Positions 3,421 to 50,267 of a stretch of DNA of 64,000 nt are shown piece by piece. The notes beneath the pieces were generated by a model. The model saw only the letters and a list, made by a program, of their open reading frames with translations. It made no database searches and had not been told where the DNA came from. Position 1 is the first letter of the stretch, and each line of letters opens with the position of its first letter. The DNA comes from Glaucostegus cemiculus. Its lineage: Eukaryota. The position numbers were made by a program, and so were the translations under genes. Where the stretch lies: contig CDPCPM010000012.1 in assembly GCA_976551045.1 (NCBI GenBank), positions 7,068,001-7,132,000 of the forward strand, given 5' to 3'.

Positions 3421-5829
3421 CTAAAGGTATTGCATACACTGTCTCTCTTCTACACATGCACGCACACAAGCACAGACTTCACATCAGTGAACTGTCTGCC
3501 CGAATTCTGCCTCACGTATAAAAAATAATGCTGGTGTTGGTATGTTGCTTCTCGTACAAATCTGGTTACTATCTGACAACACTGCTTTAACAAAGGATAG
3601 TCTACTGGGTTCTTCCGAGTTAAGAGGTACACAAGTTGAGAACATGGGTAAAAATACAGGTTACAGAATACCAACTATTAGGTTAGTAGAACCTGTCATA
3701 GAAATTGCTTTATCTGTCCTGTTCAGACTTTGAGCAAAGCAAATAACAACAGCCACATTTTATAAAAAAAAGTAAACAATATTCTTTTGTCACCGTTACC
3801 AAAATAAATATTTGCAGCAGGGTTCAATTTGTTAAATGCATACCAAGAAATACAATGCCGCTTTTTATATCTACAACATTAGTAAATGCAGTAAACCATT
3901 TCTTTGCCACAATTGTTTTACAACAAATGTTCCTTTTAAATGCAAATAAAGCAAGCAAACAGACATGCTGATCAAAAGCAGCTGATTTTTTTCACGCAAG
4001 GTGCTGATCTCCTCAATAACACACAATGCATGAGTGCTGAAACATTTCAAAACCTGTTCCTGTTGGTTAAATGAATATTTTACAGAAGTCTAATTGCAAA
4101 GCTCTTCAAACATGCCTACACATCGCCTCCAAAATGTTGGTTTTAAAACTTCAGCTATTGCTGCTGAAGTGTCAGTGGTAAAGTCAACGGCAAAATCATG
4201 TCAAATGCTGAAGCAGCTCAACAATGAAAGATGATGAGATCTTGACAAGTTTCAAATTTTTTAACAGTGAAACAGTACAAAATCTGATAAACAGCAAGCC
4301 TCAAGAATAATGGATACTTCACAGTGCATTACATGACTATAACCTAATCAAGAGGTTCAGGTGATATTATGAATCATGACAGTGAAGATATAGAGGTCAT
4401 CTGAACCCTGGGATTAGGTTACTAACTTTAGTTTGCCCTGCTATCTTATATCATTACATAAGTTATATAATATAAGTAGGGTATAGAGTGCTACAGTTAA
4501 AATGTTTATGATCTTTGGGAGAGCTTCAGGCATTTCTTGCCATTTTCACAAGCGTTCTAGTGTCGCACTGCAGTGGTCAATGATGTGTTCTGTCACAGGA
4601 AAGTATTGCACTCATTTGTGACATCATTACTGCAGGACGATTTAGTAAAAAAGACAACTTACACTAGATTAAAGGAAAATGTTAAAATATATGAACATAC
4701 TATCATTGCTCTAAGAATCTGTGAAACAAAACAGACCTCTTTAATTCTACCTCCAGAAAATAAAAGTATTAATAAAACTAAGTAAATAGAACAAGCTTTT
4801 ATTTAAGATATTTTAATTGCAGGATAGTCATACTCCAGCAATAAGCAATTACAACATTTAATGTACAGGGAAGCTTAATTTTTTTTCATCCAACTCCAAT
4901 CCCCACCCTCTCCCATCAATTAAACTAGTGCTAATAAAGGCCTGTGTGGAGAATCATGAATATTGTTCAGGTGTATGATGCCTTAGAGGGCTCTTATGTC
5001 AATCAATAAATTTCACACAATAAGAGCCGGAAGTAGAATGCTGCTGCTCAGATGGTGCCCTATTACCTAATCAGTTGATATGCAAGTGGTTTTGCCAAGA
5101 ATTGAAGAGGTCTGGCAACAATGAAAAGATCTGAGCACACAATGCTTTGTTTCATTCAGTTTATGCAAATAATATAGCTATTAGCAGACAATTAACATTC
5201 TGAAAGCTCATTATTTAAAGGTATTTAAACTATACAAATTACAGATTGCTTTTTTCCTTCCTTTTTGTTGCAATCATGTATAACCAGGAATCATTGCATT
5301 GAAAACAAGGCTACAACCAATTATTGTACTACTACCGAAGAAAATTTTCCTGGAACCTTATTAAGGAATAATCATAATAACCAACCTTATTTTAATACTA
5401 TCAGTTCATACATACTTATCCTTTTTATTCCTCCTTTGTTTACATGTAAAATAGTAACCCTTTGCACATCATGTCAAATACATCAAATTTAAGTATGAGA
5501 CATCTGCAGGCTCCCAGTGGTTAATGGGTTAAATAGAGCGGCATCTTTGGGCCAGAATTTTTTTCTCTCTCTCTCTGACATAGGTAGATGCTTAAGAAGC
5601 CAACCTGCTAAGAAATTTTCAAGATCTTCAAGTTTCTACAATGGAAAAAGATCAGATGTGCGCAGATAATTCACTTTACCCAGTCATCCTGTTAGGCAAT
5701 CACTGAACAATAACTTGAACAGAATAATGAGATGGTAGAACGAGCACACATGCTAAATTTTGAAAAACCTATTCATTACTTAAACATGACTTTGTTTTCA
5801 AGAATGTGATGAGAACACTCTTTATAAAG

Positions 5830-37870: not shown

Positions 37871-40417
37871 TAATTATCATGAGCATATCACTAATCACCT
37901 AAAATTATTGCCCCCACAGTCTGTTCAGGTTTGATTAATTATAAATATCAAAACTGAGATTAATAAGCTTTTGTCAGACTAGAGTATTGTTTCAAAATTA
38001 AATTAGGTAGATAGAGTTAAGATACAGATCAGCAATAGCCCAGCTGAATATCCAACAAGGCTTGAGGACTGGTCTAGTCCTGTTCCTGCTACTACTTCTT
38101 TGAGCTGTCAATAGTTGACTTTCAACTTTTGACCTTTGACTCTTTATAGAACATCTCTTTCATATCCAATAGAGGGCCAACGGCTAGACAATAGATAATT
38201 AGAAAGTGCAGTTTTACTGATAATCGATGTTTGAACGTGACATTGATAAGAATGCAAGTGCATTACAGGAGAATAGTAGTGTTTGGAGACAGCCACAATC
38301 AAGGCAGTGGAAGTCAGATGATCATAAAGCTGAGGAAGGGGTTGTGGGCAGGGGAAAGGAATTGTACAGAGTGACAAAATGAAGAGGACAGATATTGTTA
38401 AAACAAAAGAAAAAGGTAAGCTGAGATATAGTTGAAAATCACCAAGGGAGAGAGACACATAGAGCAGAAGCACAGAGAGTAGAGAGAGACCATCTCAAAT
38501 CGAAACCAGGAATGGTTCACAGAGAACAAGGATTTAAAAGAAAAAACAAGTATGGTGATGGAAGAAAAATGGAGGCAAAACTAAAAAAAAACAAAAGCTC
38601 TGTGTGGTTGAAAAATAAAGCAATATTGCAAACATTTTTGGGTGTCCTAAGAGCAGTTACTAGCATCTTCTGCTTATTTGGGGCTGTGATATGTGTTCAC
38701 TTATGTTCCAATTTCAAACTAGTTCAGATGATGTTGGTGGTAGTGCAAAATTCATCATCAATGAAATTTTCAACCACATCGGTCTGAAAAACAAAAGTGG
38801 CTGTTCATTGCAGAAGAACCGGCTTTTACTGACATGGCAATATTCTCACAGTTTAGTGCTGTTCAATCAATTTGCAGCTCCACTGCAGCTGGTGCAAATC
38901 CCGTGACTGGCAATGGCCACCTTTGTTGGAGGTGTATGCAGGAGATGGGTCCTGAAACCTCACAGTTAGCTGTTAGCTGTGTCTAAGAAAGAAACAAAGC
39001 ACAGATCGTGTTGTGGAGAAGAGACATGGAGAAGGAGAGAGACAAGAAGAGAAAAATGGAGAGCAGCAGGGAAATTGAGTGGGGGAAAGAGACAGATCGA
39101 GCATCACTCAGAAAAGAAAGTACATTTCGAGAAGGAGGGGCATGGTAAGAGACAGAAGTAAAGGGAAAGCAAAGGAAGATGGAGGTTGAAGCAGCTTGTG
39201 TAAATGAGTGAATGAATATGTGGTTAAAAAAAAGGTGTCATCTGACTGTGATTCATGTTTGGTGGTGACATTGTGCACATGTACCTTAAGTTGGTTGATG
39301 AAATACCAGCTGCATGGCTTAAGTGCTGGCAGCTGCAAGAAATTTAACTACTGCTTTACAACAATTCCTGATGTTTTGGAAACACATGGCATTACACAAG
39401 GGAGCCAGAAAATATTTTCAAAATGGTACTGTATAATATTGAGATCTTTTTGGACATGCAACTCAGTTTTCATGCAGAAAAAAATACATGTGCATTTCTA
39501 ACACAGAAATTTTAGAGAAGGACACTAAGGAATGCCTTGCCATGTCTGATTGGTATCCAATGTGCCCTGGGTTTTTTGATATTGTGTGACCCAAGCGTTA
39601 ATTGTGATTCAAGGGACTGCACAGCCAGCTGACACTAGTAATACATTTTAAATTCTGAAACCTTTAAAGTTGTACCTACAGGGTGCCATGACCCACTTGT
39701 ATTCCTGAAGCAGAAACGGGCCTGTAAGGACAATGGCAGACATACAGAATGGGCGGTGAATAAAGAAAAAATGATGAAAATATGGAAAGGGTCTGAAAAT
39801 AATTAGTTTGTGATGTGTAAAATTTACAATGCTAGAAACATATTAGGTAAGTCAGTACCTGTGCAGAGAAACAGGAGGTTGTGTCTTTGGAGATATGCCC
39901 AAATAAATTATTCCAATTACTTGAAAGATTTATAAAAAAAAATTATTACTAAATGTGAAAGTTGGGACTTGAGAGTGTAAATCAATGCTGTATTTCTTAC
40001 TCTCCTTTTTCTTTGCAGCCTTCCATGCTGCTGACCCTGTAGTATAACTAAGAGAACTTGTGGGCAACACCAGGAACTTCTAAAGCCTCTGTCATTGCCA
40101 GTGTGGTCAGCCAGTAAAAGGTACTGACCTGCAATGTGGCAAAACTCCAAATGGTTGCAGAAATTTGTAGTTTATCCTTACAGCTCATAGGAAAGAATTG
40201 AATATATATTGCTATATATAGGAAGAGTATTCTAAAGTAAAATTTATGTACATTATGTTCTGCTTTACCATGCTGCAAACTCAACAAATTACAGCTATTA
40301 TTTAATGAGAAATCAAAGTATGAATTTGCAGTAAGAAAAGTGTGTACTAAACTTCAACTTATAAAAGAACCTAAAATAAAGTCTAAAACTTAAAATTGAC
40401 AAAATTTGTGAAAAATT

Positions 40418-40725: not shown

Positions 40726-41716
40726 TAAGAATTATTATTATTAAAATTATTATTTTAAGAATTCCAATAATTCCTAGATAGGCATAAGTACAAGTCTCTA
40801 AAATTCAAAGGTGCATTTTTAATAATGTGACTTTTCTAAATGTTTAACAATCATGCAGTTCTATTTATTACATTCTTTATGCTGTTACTCTTTGATAATA
40901 ATAATTACAGCAGCTGGTTGTGCCTTGTATTATAGATGTTCTAAGACAGTATCTTCACAAGCATGTAGACTTACTATACACCTCTGCAGTGGTTTACAAC
41001 AGAGGGTTTAGTGTGTGAACCTTAGGAACCTTTTGCCTCGCTGCTCAGCCCTACAAGAAGATAATAAATCTCAAATTCATCTTTTTATTTTGGATAGAGA
41101 TCTATCGAATCCATGTGTTTTTAAACAGTATATTTTTCATCTACAGTTCACAATACTCCAGGCCTTCTGTATATAAAAATAATCAGAGTTTTTAATAATT
41201 CATTGATGCTCCTGCCAGAACACTTCCCTCCAATCAGTGTCCTAGAACCAAATTAGAAAATCACAACTCATATGGTGGTGATGATATTCAGTGATGATGA
41301 TTTTCTGATGGAGGATGTAATAAACTATTCTGTATATTACTGAATCATGTTATGATGTGGATAACTGAATTTGTCATACACTTCTTTGAATAACTAGTAC
41401 ACATAAATCCCAACTGAAAATTCACACAATATAAATGATGTCTAAGATTTATACAATCCATCTCCAATCATTGGTTTTCAGACCCTTCTGCTTGAGCGAC
41501 CCCCAAGAAATATTGTCACACTCCCTTCTTCAGTGTCTTTCTTACAAAGTGTTCTATTTCAACTTGATCCCAGATTTTGATTGAGCACTTGTGGGCAATA
41601 TTAGGAACATCCAAAGTCTCTGTCAATGAATGCTAGTATAGTGAGTTGAAGGGCAATGTAACTTCAAAATATAACTTCAAAAATATAGATTCATTTAAAA
41701 GAAAGTTAGAGACAGA

Positions 41717-42762
41717 CAGCATCTTCTATAGATTATCTGTGGCATTCTGCAACAGCGATGCCATCAAGCCAATAAAGGGGAAGTGGGATACATGGATGAT
41801 TGAGCTAGGTGAAAGAAGGCATGGATCAGTTGGAATGAATAACTGATGAAAATGATAATAGTGGAAAAAGTAAATCCAAACTAATAAGTTCAAACAATTT
41901 ATATTACCTTCTGCAGAGACATCCTGCTGATTCGTACAAAATATCACCAGGAATGAAATGGTAAGTATTCTGCCTGAAGACAACTAGTTGGCCATTGCTA
42001 GTCTGAACCAAGCCAAAATATTGATTTGGAAGTTGTGGTGACAATAGCAGTGAAGTATAATGGGAAAAATCTGGCAGTGCTTTGTGAAATACATATGTGT
42101 AGTTAAATAGGGAAATCATGAACTTGCTCTCAGTGAAATATTGCAGATGCTGGAATCTGGAGCAATACACAAAATGTGCTGGAGGAACTCAGCAGGTCAA
42201 GCAGCATGCATGGAAGGAAATAAACAGTCCACGTTTCGGGCCGAGTCCCTTCATCAGGACTCTACCCTCATATGAACGCGGAGGTCCCACCATTTCCATC
42301 CATGGATGCTGCCTGACCTGCAGAGTTCCTCCAGTACTTTTTGTGTATTGAACTTGCTCTCAGTAATAGCTTGTTCCATTGCATGCCTCACATTTGACAA
42401 TTAATGTTCATTTCAAATTTTTATAAATTATTCCTGATGTTAAAATTTTACATTTACTCTGTGAACAACAGGTAGTGACAAAGGTGTTGCTGAATGCATC
42501 TCTGGTGCTAAAGATGAAATTTTGTGTGTTTTAGCTCTAATGCTCTTGGAATAATTCTCTCAGAATGTGTTTCTAATTCAAAATTCAATGCACTTTAAGA
42601 TACCTTTTTTTAAAGTTTATGTTATATCTAGGTCCCAAATTTTATCTCAGTAGAATGTTTCCTGTTGGCTGTCTGTCAGCATTCTTTAATCTTATTGGCT
42701 GTTCAACCAGCTTGATGGCATCGCTGTTGCAGAATGCCACAGATAATCTATAGAAGATGCTG
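41717..42762. repeat. Perfect 53-bp inverted repeat: arms 41717-41769 and 42710-42762, 940-bp spacer
   Basis: cagcatcttctatagattatctgtggcattctgcaacagcgatgccatcaagc is the exact reverse complement of 42710-42762; both ORF tracks show SIFYRLSVAFCNSDAIK. Confidence 0.98.
42135..42348. mobile_element. Short Penelope-like insertion with internally inverted ends and a 16-bp TSD
   Basis: tgaacttgctctcagt at both 42119-42134 and 42349-42364; internal 'acacaaaatgtgctggaggaactcagcaggtcaagcagcat' versus inverted 'atgctgcctgacctgcagagttcctccagtactttttgtgt'. Confidence 0.9.
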
Positions 42763-43750
42763 CCAGCAACCGGCATCAGGAAAGGAGGATTCCACATTAC
42801 TGAGCTTGCTGATGCCTTGTGGGGATATTTCCTCAAGATCAGCATCAAGTGCCATCCCTTCTGTTGCCAACCAGAAAAACTGGGCTATCTTTTAGAAGGG
42901 GAATGCAACTAGGAAAGGAAAATAAATGGAATCTAGAGCTTTAGGGCATCTGGTCAGGAGCCAAATTTACAACTTTACAACTATTTGGCTAGCACAGTAA
43001 TTGTTAATATAATACATAAATGCAAAGAATAATAAATAAGAAACAAAGGGACACTGCAATGGCTTCATGCAATTAAGATTCAGCTATAAAATCACACACA
43101 TATTCAGCAAGGCAACTCTTGTATCTTCTTTTGTATCACTCCCAAAGAGTGTTTCTGCAATAGTTTCGTAAGATTTTAAATTATCTTTCTTTTGTGTTAA
43201 CCAAGAAGCTCTATGGAAGTTCAAAACTTTTCAGTTTGTTCCCTGAATTGATCACATTTAGTATCCAATACAGTAAAGCAACACTAAAGATAGACCACTG
43301 AAATGAAAATTGAAGATTTAAATCAAAGCCACATGCAAATATTCCTACAATATTACCTGTTATTTTCAGTTACATTATTTTGACAAATCTCAGTGTTACT
43401 GCCTTACACTACAGTTAACTTAAGAAATAACATTAATTCATCACAGCCACCATGTCAATTACATCAGAAAAACTTTGAATATAACTAATACATGGTGAGG
43501 AACTCAGAAGTTAATCTCTCTGACTTCAAATCAAAGGTGTAGAAATTGGATCTTATTTCAGAAACTAAGCCAATTTCTGGGACCACTACTTGACACCCGC
43601 AGGATGCCTGAAATCTGACCAACTTTACATTGGTGCCTGCTGGTTTACAGCTGCTTTGATGACCAACTGAAAAATGCAGAAGACTATTACGTAGATGCAA
43701 ATGAGAGGCTTAACACCTGCTTCAGACCGACTCAATCATAGCAGGAGCCA

Positions 43751-49045: not shown

Positions 49046-50267
49046 GTGAGCTTCTTGGTAAATAAAATAAGAGAAATTAAGCTTAAATCATCAGTTCTTT
49101 CAAAACAAAATGACTGTCACGTCATTTTCCTCCTTGCATCTCCAGAGCAGTACACTTCCTTTTCAACTGGTGCAGTGAGAGGTCAGATTCTGATGCACCT
49201 GATCTTTCACCCCACCCCTGGATTCACCATTGAGACTGGGGCAATTCCTGTTTGATCTGAGCCAGAGGATGGGGGTCAGATACACTCTTATTGCAGCCTC
49301 ATGTCTACTGCAGTCCCAGACATTTAAATGGGATCATTGACCTGCACTGAGAAAAGTGGCTGGTTTCTTTCCCTGCATTTTAACTATTAATTAGGTTACA
49401 TCAGATGACTGTTTTTAATTAAATTTATTCCATTTCCATGTTATATTTACAATTATTTTTAATATTTAATTGTTGAAGTACAATTCAATGTTTTAAAATT
49501 TCTCTCATCACCAGAGATATAGAAATAATTACAAGACCTTTGACAACTGTCAAAAGCCACTGGGAAAGATCTGACCAGGGTCTCTTGATTTACCACCTAA
49601 GGACACGTCAAAGTTTCATGATGCAACCCGGGCAGTGAGGCCTTAAGGTTGTTGGGAGACACAGAGCTGCACTAATAGCACAAGGGTTTACTTAAGATGC
49701 AGGCCAAATAGAGCAGAACCCTGCCCAATAACACTGCTGTTGAGGAGATCTGATGAGAGGTCATTATCCTGAAATGTGAACTCTATTTCTTCCATCCCCA
49801 AAATCAATTAACATTGAATATTCCCAGCATTTTCTAATGTTATGATGCTATGTTGATCTATCTGCCTGAATCTTAAGAGTAGTTTTATGTTTCTTCTATT
49901 ATATCCCTCTTCAACAAATTATCTAATTATTATGGCATTGCTATTTGTGAGAGCTAGCTATGTGCAAACTGGCTACCACGTTTCCTAAATTACAATAGTG
50001 ACTATACTTCGAAGTGAAAGTACCCCATTGCTGCAAAGCATTTTGGGATGATCTGAAAAGGACATAAAGGAAAATCAGGTGACTTTCTTGATAAATAAAA
50101 TAAGGGAAATTAAGTCTGAATCATCAGTCCTTTTAAAAGAAGATTGTCATTTCATTTTCTTCCTTGCATCCCCACTTCTTCTTTCACCTAGTGCAGTGAG
50201 AGGTCAGATGTTGATACACCTGATCTTTCACCCCACCCCTGGAGTTACCACTGAGACCTGGGGCAAT
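49046..50267 (+). repeat. Diverged direct duplication: 49046-49245 and 50079-50267 (~1.03-kb offset)
   Basis: Colinear, roughly 80% identical by eye; both ORF tracks read FL(V/I)NKIREIK..SSVL...AVRGQ...HLIFHPTPG. Confidence 0.95.
49930..50060 (+). mobile_element. Deu-domain SINE 3' remnant
   Basis: 'cattgctatttgtgagagc...tgtgcaaactggctaccacgtttcct...ttacaatagtgactatacttc...gcaaagcattttgggatg' is the reverse complement of the 2940-3090 pattern. Confidence 0.6.

What the first reader, a model, noticed from the sequence alone, without database searches (positions are those of the whole stretch)
41711..41775. Three-piece templated insertion copied in inverted orientation from ~1 kb downstream, joined at microhomologies
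Seen: 41711-41720 (gacagacagc) is the reverse complement of 42668-42677, 41717-41769 that of 42710-42762 (53/53), and 41767-41775 (agccaataa) that of 42692-42700. The pieces overlap by CAGC and AGC, so all 65 bp derive from one 95-bp donor in rearranged order. The patch interrupts what looks like an old CR1 3'-end remnant and has no TSD. Established: patchwork templated insertions with microhomology junctions are the signature of polymerase-theta-mediated end joining or FoSTeS/MMBIR template switching. Inference: a recent germline repair scar, since it has no mismatches in an otherwise decayed neighbourhood. The 9- and 10-bp pieces are short, but both map within 45 bp of the main donor.
Basis: partly seen in the sequence, partly recalled or inferred. 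Interest (0 to 1): 0.7.

Follow-up and report, generated by a model that had tools for sequence, protein, structure and literature searches.

The report
Old inverted DNA-repair copy scar
A short patch of non-coding DNA is a backwards copy of sequence lying 1 kb away, is shared with four related species and so is old rather than recent, and is most likely an ordinary DNA-repair copying scar of a kind already catalogued in humans and other vertebrates.

Summary
The donor sits collinearly inside an old dispersed repeat, so 41.7 kb is the copy. 'Recent' is wrong: contigs of four related species, 4-6% diverged, carry the patch (three span it, one its right part), and in two the arms differ. Identity of 53/53 at that age has probability about 0.05-0.34. 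The anatomy needs revision: the 53-mer and 9-mer are one donor tract with a 12-nt slip; the 10-mer is weaker (P 0.01-0.15); the host CR1 register suggests a ~74-nt insertion ending in 11 nt of untraced filler. This fits proximal repair-mediated duplication (Pace 2009; mean distance 1.2 kb) and complex germline MMB-TI. It is common here: 5 isolated inverted patches in 1.86 Mb. This scan found the same kind before on other DNA and in this genome. One side result: without anchoring on transposons, 10-12 of 17 local duplications lie 0.6-1.4 kb apart, so the 1.2-kb peak that Pace et al. feared was an artefact may be real.

The parts
41685..41712 (+). Left part of host: decayed CR1-like 3'-end remnant
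   Evidence: 25-27 nt hit to a profile of local CR1 3' ends, above 150 of 150 shuffles; the only other genomic 21-mer within 1 mismatch lies in a CR1 3' end
41711..41720 (-). Piece 1: 10-nt inverted match to 42668-42677, overlapping the core by 4 nt; 41711-41712 are probably host letters
   Evidence: chance P 0.01-0.03, or 0.04-0.15 with the B/D allele at 41711; the window's letter at 41711 is seen in 0 of 31 parsed CR1 copies
41717..41769 (-). Core: 53-nt perfect inverted copy of 42710-42762
   Evidence: present in relatives A, B, D (whole) and E (41740-41769)
41767..41775 (-). Piece 3: 9-nt inverted match to 42692-42700; collinear with the core across a 12-nt skip at a 3-nt repeat
41776..41786 (.). 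Probable filler of about 11 nt with no traced template (inferred boundary)
   Evidence: best host register joins 41712 to 41787; no exact match of 9 nt or more for the window allele within 36-48 kb
41787..41850 (+). Right part of host: continuation of the CR1-like remnant
   Evidence: mean local score to 71 CR1 copies 22.0 versus at most 20.8 in 100 shuffles; joined register 9.2 bits, reached by 2 of 100 shuffles
42668..42762 (+). Donor region (42668-42677, 42692-42700, 42710-42762)
42540..42830 (+). Old dispersed repeat of unidentified family that holds the donor, collinear through both ends of the 53-mer
   Evidence: 12 other genomic hits at 74-87%; alignments run across 42710 and, in L006 and L013, past 42762

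Best explanation
The patch is a backwards copy of DNA 1 kb away, fixed before five related species split, and was likely written when a broken or stalled DNA end in a dead CR1 fragment used the nearby sequence as a template and then rejoined. Inferred steps: a break at about 41712|41787; a 3' end pairs with the donor in inverted geometry (invasion of the duplex or of the opposite strand at a fork by the left end, or fold-back of a right-hand tail resected by about 1 kb); it copies about 59 nt of 42692-42762, slipping 12 nt at a 3-nt repeat; it re-primes once at a 4-nt microhomology about 40-90 nt away (piece 1); about 11 nt of filler are added and the ends rejoin with little or no loss of host DNA. 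Shown: the matches, the direction of copying, presence in relatives, absence of a target-site duplication. Inferred: the break, the pathway, the order of steps, the outer boundaries. I favour strand-invasion copying of the SDSA/MMBIR type (about 0.65) over polymerase theta alone (about 0.2). No function is indicated.
For: Exact matches and internal microhomologies of 4 and 3 nt. Two genomic places only. Donor collinear with an old repeat on both sides. Flanks of the patch fit one CR1 3' end in register when 74 nt are removed (9.2 bits, 2 of 100 shuffles reach it; 12.4 bits with the B/D letter at 41711). Patch present in A, B, D, E from four studies. Arms drift apart in relatives: D copy has 4 changes in the 53 nt, B donor has 5-6, so no sign of constraint. 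Same structure is common: 5 isolated inverted pairs in 1.86 Mb, one a multi-piece patch inside a LINE remnant 37 kb away. Pace et al. describe 824 human cases with donor within 5 kb, mean 1.2 kb, microhomology 2-9 nt and filler 1-68 nt (PMC2671141); Osia et al. found 33 and 26 complex germline events in two people (PMC8421209).
Against: No empty orthologous site was found, so the outer junctions, any priming microhomology and any deletion rest on a weak CR1 alignment (the intact region scores only about 0-2 bits; a first multiple alignment placed the flanks differently; gap estimates from pairwise alignments were scattered). Piece 1 could be chance or host sequence (P up to 0.15). The 12-nt skip may be a later deletion. 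No reads of the window's own species cover the patch (X9 covers only 41844-42041; X11 laid nothing), so 53/53 itself is from the assembly alone. Sequence cannot tell SDSA, MMBIR, fork switching and polymerase theta apart.
Confidence: 0.9

Rival explanations
1. Recent or polymorphic germline scar.
For: 0 mismatches in 65 nt in the window; upper 95% bound on copy-donor divergence 4.5%.
Against: A, B, D span it in one contig with 2-4 gap letters over 41540-41960 or 4 over 41430-42164, E holds 41740-41960; these differ from the window by 17 of 421, 24 of 421 and 9 of 221 letters. P(0 of 53) is 0.05-0.34 for 5.5-2% arm divergence.
Confidence: 0.01
2. The same old scar, but its two arms have since been homogenised from time to time by gene conversion or hairpin-templated repair, which is why the window's arms are identical.
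For: At 41737 the copy has T in A, B and D while the window's copy matches its donor; in B both arms carry that T (2 contigs, depth 27.1 of 27.1). E's arms are identical over 41740-41769. Distances (W-B 17, W-D 24 of 421) do not force the window's species to be the outgroup.
Against: One site. If the window's species is sister to A, B, D, no conversion is needed; a nearby old paralogue (40052-40097) sides once with each group. B's donor has 5-6 changes, so a parallel hit is not unlikely. D's arms differ at 3-5 of 53.
Confidence: 0.2
3. Polymerase-theta-mediated end joining alone wrote the patch by hairpin priming and repeated abortive synthesis.
For: Inverted orientation, short microhomologies and several rounds are its marks; inverted insertions are read as hairpin-primed (PMC7165422, passages). 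The donor lies on the side and strand that a resected right end could fold back on.
Against: Primary tracts rarely exceed 10 bp and distal templates were under 0.1% of repair in that study; here the tract is 53-59 nt from 940 bp away.
Confidence: 0.2
4. The two 53-mers are terminal inverted repeats of a 1046-bp DNA transposon or MITE.
For: Perfect inverted ends about 1 kb apart that begin with CAG (a recalled TIR-like start).
Against: No target-site duplication (longest 3 nt with 3 nt of slack); two genomic places; the right arm is internal to an older repeat, and the host CR1 continues across the left arm into the supposed interior.
Confidence: 0.01
5. The arms are duplications left at the two ends of a 940-bp inversion made by staggered breaks.
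For: Inverted duplicates flank a 940-bp segment (mechanism recalled, from no call).
Against: The donor repeat is unbroken across 42710 and the CR1 remnant keeps one orientation across the patch, so neither end is an inversion breakpoint.
Confidence: 0.02
6. The inverted repeat is kept because it forms an RNA duplex around an exon or regulatory element.
For: The arms pair fully in a predicted fold of 41700-42780 (trivial for perfect arms); an exon-like 44-nt stretch with splice-like ends lies at 41917-41960 (seen).
Against: Arms diverge in B and D at or above the background rate, without compensation except 41737 in B. 0 of 98 open frames of 45 aa or more at 36-50 kb hit Pfam, the 27-aa frame hit neither Pfam nor PDB, no Rfam hit at 40-45 kb.
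Confidence: 0.04

Closest known systems
Proximal repair-mediated duplication (RD), Pace, Sen, Batzer and Feschotte 2009, PMC2671141 (seen: abstract, passages, sections 6 and 12, part 1 of 2 of section 13; supplements not seen)
   Same: Insertion of 50 bp or more interrupting a transposon remnant, donor at one other place within 5 kb (mean 1.2 kb), no polyA tail, microhomology plus filler, sometimes chimeric, old events fixed across species.
   Different: At 59-74 nt it is at the short end (mean 162 bp); its second template is within 45 bp of the first, closer than their chimeric cases (289-3,432 bp); no empty site in hand; their survey had no cartilaginous fish.
Complex germline MMB-TI, Osia et al. 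2021, PMC8421209 (seen: passages and part 1 of 2 of section 10; supplements not seen)
   Same: Inverted templated insertion with microhomology at each switch and up to several templates; germline; 33 and 26 complex events in two people.
   Different: Their tool looks for templates within 100 bp; here the template is 940 bp away.
Polymerase theta templated insertions (TINS), Carvajal-Garcia et al. 2020, PMC7165422 (seen: passages)
   Same: Inverted class, repeated rounds of priming at short microhomologies.
   Different: Tracts rarely over 10 bp and templates local; distal templates under 0.1% of repair.
Local 2-jumps in cancer genomes, Li et al. 2020, PMC7025897 (seen: passages); short-range template switches in apes, Walker et al. 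2021, PMC7954356 (seen: abstract); yeast fold-back inverted insertions, Yu et al. 2024, PMC11724301 (seen: abstract)
   Same: Nearby sequence copied in inverted orientation by template switching.
   Different: Scale: structural variants in tumours, or switches and fold-backs adjacent to the break (about 5-34 bp in yeast).

Membership tests
Proximal repair-mediated duplication (Pace 2009) | Insertion of at least 50 bp that interrupts a transposon whose two parts continue in register | tested here: met
   Both flanks resemble CR1 3' ends and join in register at 41712|41787; support is modest (2 of 100 shuffles reach the score)
Proximal repair-mediated duplication (Pace 2009) | [quoted passage not shown] | tested here: met
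   2 places in G000; other members of the donor's repeat family are 74-87% alike; the search skips very common words
Proximal repair-mediated duplication (Pace 2009) | Donor more than 50 bp and less than 5 kb away | tested here: met
   940 nt between arms
Proximal repair-mediated duplication (Pace 2009) | No polyA/T tract; microhomology, filler or small deletion at the breakpoints | tested here: met
   No tract of 5 or more at either end; internal microhomologies 4 and 3 nt; about 11 nt filler inferred
Proximal repair-mediated duplication (Pace 2009) | Empty site at the orthologous locus | tested here: inconclusive
   All 4 relatives that cover the patch carry it; 2 further runs did not cover it. 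Pace et al. accept the transposon alignment in place of an empty site
Complex MMB-TI (Osia 2021) | Inverted copy with microhomology at junctions and more than one template switch | tested here: met
   the second switch (piece 1) is only moderately supported
Complex MMB-TI (Osia 2021) | Template within 100 bp (operational limit of their tool) | tested here: not met
   940 bp
Polymerase theta TINS | Short primary tract (rarely over 10 bp) from a template next to the break | tested here: not met
   53-59 nt from 940 bp away
Polymerase theta TINS | Dependence on POLQ | not testable with these tools
   Fossil event; needs mutants
TIR transposon or MITE | Target-site duplication and further copies with the same ends | tested here: not met
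Inversion with staggered-break duplications | Flanking sequence broken and reversed at both duplicated ends | tested here: not met
   Donor repeat and host CR1 both continuous

The most novel reading that the evidence does not exclude
This scar is one of thousands in a slowly evolving shark/ray-type genome, and together they show that germline repair has a real preferred reach of about 1 kb when it picks a template. In 1.2 Mb from three other contigs, scanned without anchoring on transposons, 10-12 of 17 locally two-copy duplications lie 0.6-1.4 kb apart and only 1 lies at 100-450 bp (p 0.0002 or less against a log-uniform spread). Pace et al. saw a 1.2-kb peak in humans but warned it might be an artefact of their method; these genomes would make it directly testable, and the density (about 14 per Mb) may be far above their 0.08-0.65 per Mb of transposon DNA, though the two pipelines are not comparable.
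Probability: 0.4. Interest if true: 0.45.

Novelty: new member of a known kind. Interest (0 to 1): 0.2.

Why it matters
The patch itself matters little: a neutral, fixed scar of a class counted in the hundreds per vertebrate genome. It is a clean warning that perfect arm identity over 50 nt does not mean recent in slowly evolving genomes, and it could serve as a shared derived marker for the five species. The wider pattern of a ~1-kb donor distance, if it holds genome-wide, would constrain how far a broken end reaches for a template (resection length, fork geometry or chromatin looping).

Tried and rejected
Own-genome DNA searches with the flanks found no close relative of the host element. 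A multiple alignment of the intact region with 7 CR1 ends misplaced the flanks; my first guess of a ~40-nt host deletion was not supported (N-spacer test) and gave way to the near-zero-loss register. In one search, 40 of 71 copies did not match my motif and were left out of the 0-of-31 count; 3 of 40 random controls there scored far above the real join, presumably because they were CR1 copies (not checked), so the shuffle control is the one I rely on. An 8-nt direct match of 41775-41782 to 42896-42903 was no better than four other 8-mers within 36-48 kb and was rejected as a fourth template. A crude splice-site scan with recalled weights did not list the exon-like stretch at 41917-41960; Pfam, PDB and Rfam found nothing, so gene context is undetermined. 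No RNA holder was listed for the stretch and no RNA run was laid. X9 and X11 (organism C, 198 of 198 identical where X9 covers) did not cover the patch; a hole proves nothing. The donor's repeat family was not identified. Abyzov et al. 2015, which I recall reporting two characteristic template distances at human deletions, and Thomas et al. on doublets were not held; I saw nothing of them beyond citation by other papers. Paper searches found no study of such insertions in sharks or rays (listings only); the library lacks most subscription papers. Supplements of PMC2671141 and PMC8421209 were not read and may hold closer cases or orientation counts.

Full report
Observation. The three inverted matches are exactly as reported, and the 53-nt pair is the longest perfect inverted repeat at 39-46 kb, with 940 nt between the arms. 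A search of the 2.85-Gb own genome returned only the patch and the donor. With the core fixed and about 20,000 random flanks, a junction-spanning match of 10 nt on the left arises with P 0.010-0.034 and one of 9 nt on the right with P 0.015-0.030, depending on a template range of 50-250 bp. The short pieces are thus probably real together, but neither is strong alone. The core and the 9-mer are one tract: 41717-41775 (59 nt) is donor 42692-42762 (71 nt) reversed, with 12 nt missing at a 3-nt repeat. Only the 10-mer is out of order.

Direction. The donor lies in an old dispersed repeat with 12 other hits at 74-87%. Family members align across the 42710 edge (7 of the 8 fetched start upstream of it by 15 nt or more, one by 14) and two run on past 42762. 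So 42.7 kb is the source and 41.7 kb the copy, and 42710 is not an inversion breakpoint.

Host. The left flank gives a weak hit to a profile of local CR1 3' ends that stops at the patch (above 150 of 150 shuffles), and the only other genomic 21-mer within one mismatch sits in a CR1 3' end. Against 71 copies from 664 kb, the right flank scored above 100 of 100 shuffles and the left above the shuffle mean (19.5 versus 16.5) but not above the top shuffle (19.7). Scoring 208 possible joins of the flanks, the five best all remove 74 nt, the best being 41712|41787 (9.2 bits; 2 of 100 shuffles over the same grid reach it; 12.4 bits with the letter that B and D carry at 41711). The window's letter at that column occurs in 0 of 31 parsed copies (40 of 71 not parsed). 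I infer an insertion of about 74 nt with little host loss, in which 41711-41712 are host, and 41776-41786 is filler with no template of 9 nt or more within 36-48 kb for the window allele. This rests on a decayed element and is moderate evidence.

Age. Thirteen runs of six studies hold part of 41000-43500, none with more than 0.20 of the words, i.e. relatives. Of 6 runs laid, contigs of organisms A, B and D cross the whole patch without a joint, E covers 41740-41960 including the right junction with 36 letters on the patch side, and the two runs of organism C did not cover it. Differences from the window over the second lay were 17 of 421 (B), 24 of 421 (D) and 9 of 221 (E). Within the 53-mer B's copy has 2 changes and its donor 5 plus one at the edge, D's copy 4 and its donor 1, E's donor 1 (most donor changes are counted but not placed). 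The patch is therefore fixed, older than the split of these species, and not an assembly artefact. Identity of 53/53 has probability 0.34, 0.11 and 0.05 at 2, 4 and 5.5% arm divergence, and 0 of 65 bounds the divergence at 4.5%, so the event probably fell not long before that split. No calibrated date is possible; at the epaulette shark rate of 7e-10 per generation (CI 1.4-14.1e-10; PMC10587355, passages), 2% per lineage is over ten million generations. That the organism is a shark or ray rests on recalled repeat types and on earlier notes on this genome, not on a test here. One site hints at conversion: 41737 is T in the copies of A, B and D, and in B also in the donor, while the window's arms both have C. 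One site cannot separate this from rooting and parallel change.

Mechanism. Most likely a break or stalled fork in the CR1 remnant was repaired by a 3' end that primed on the donor in inverted geometry, copied about 59 nt with one 12-nt slip, re-primed once at a 4-nt microhomology, gained filler and rejoined. Two geometries fit: the left end invading, or switching to the opposite strand ahead of a fork; or the right end, resected by about 1 kb, folding back on its own tail. Polymerase theta alone fits less well, since its primary tracts are rarely over 10 bp and distal templates were under 0.1% of repair (PMC7165422). TIR ends, a staggered-break inversion and a selected RNA duplex are each contradicted; no coding or structured-RNA family was found nearby.

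Base rate. In 1.864 Mb (664 kb around the window plus 400 kb each from three other contigs) a scan for locally two-copy pairs of 30 nt or more gave 43 rows, 10 under 100 bp apart and 33 further; 5 were isolated inverted pairs, this one included. One, 37 kb away, is a 33-nt perfect inverted patch with further 12-13-nt pieces inside a LINE remnant that 10 other copies span. None of 14 pairs checked had a target-site duplication over 3 nt. Extrapolated, the genome holds thousands.

Known class. Pace et al. 2009 (PMC2671141; a lead from earlier notes, then read) define repair-mediated duplications: insertions of 50 bp or more inside transposons, donor within 5 kb, mean 1.2 kb, with microhomology, filler or small deletions; 824 in human, 80 in zebrafish. 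This patch meets every feature tested except the empty site, which was not obtained. Osia et al. 2021 (PMC8421209) report about 100 germline templated insertions per person, 26-33 of them multi-template. The scan has met the kind before: 36 notes in at least 25 genomes hold the same words, with one in this genome at 986 bp. These are unchecked AI notes and are not counted as support.

Side result. After seeing spacings near 1 kb around the window I wrote down a test before fetching the other three contigs. There, 23 rows merged into 19 loci; 2 beyond 10 kb were dropped; 12 of 17 fall at 600-1400 bp, or 10 of 17 if two merged loci are scored by their other row (p 0.0002 against log-uniform 100-10,000 bp); 10 of 15 for strictly two-hit loci and 6 of 10 for inverted ones (p 0.00005 and 0.004). 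Pace et al. warned that their 1.2-kb peak might come from anchoring on transposons; this scan does not anchor so. Against it: the null is arbitrary, n is small, and ends of rare LTR or TIR elements could contribute, since uniqueness was judged within 1.86 Mb only.

Verdict. A real, old, apparently neutral repair-mediated duplication; new member of a known kind; interest 0.2.

Noticed in passing
L017:4701-4743 (donor L017:6036-6092): A second inverted templated patch 37 kb from the finding: 33 nt perfect from 1.33 kb away plus 13- and 12-nt pieces, inside a LINE remnant spanned by 10 other copies.
   Followed up: partly
G000:C29, C114, C241 stretches (L078-L197): Locally two-copy duplications cluster at 0.45-1.25 kb spacing, with 1 of 17 at 100-450 bp.
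   Followed up: partly
window 41737 and 42742: Organism B carries the same change in both arms, and the window's copy matches its donor where A, B and D copies do not; possible gene conversion.
   Followed up: partly
window 42540-42830; L006-L013 near position 1500: An unidentified, very old dispersed repeat with a conserved core of about 90 nt (63-87% among copies).
   Followed up: partly
window 40052-40097 and 41583-41628: 46-nt direct duplicate, 83% alike, 1.5 kb apart; perhaps an older scar of the same kind.
   Followed up: no
window 49161-49236 and 50182-50257: Direct duplicate about 1 kb apart, 76 nt at 89.5% within about 224 nt at 80%.
   Followed up: no
window 42135-42350: Two halves of a very high-copy short repeat in inverted orientation (59 nt, 90% complementary, 70-nt spacer) inside the spacer.
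   Followed up: no
L016:8236-8416: Near-perfect hairpin, arms 83 nt at 98.8%, 15-nt loop.
   Followed up: no
L054:3223-3457 and 4287-4521: 235-nt inverted duplicate at 95.7%, 829 nt apart, no target-site duplication.
   Followed up: partly
window 41917-41960: Exon-like 44 nt with splice-like ends on the + strand between the arms; no Pfam or PDB hit, not listed by a crude splice scan.
   Followed up: partly
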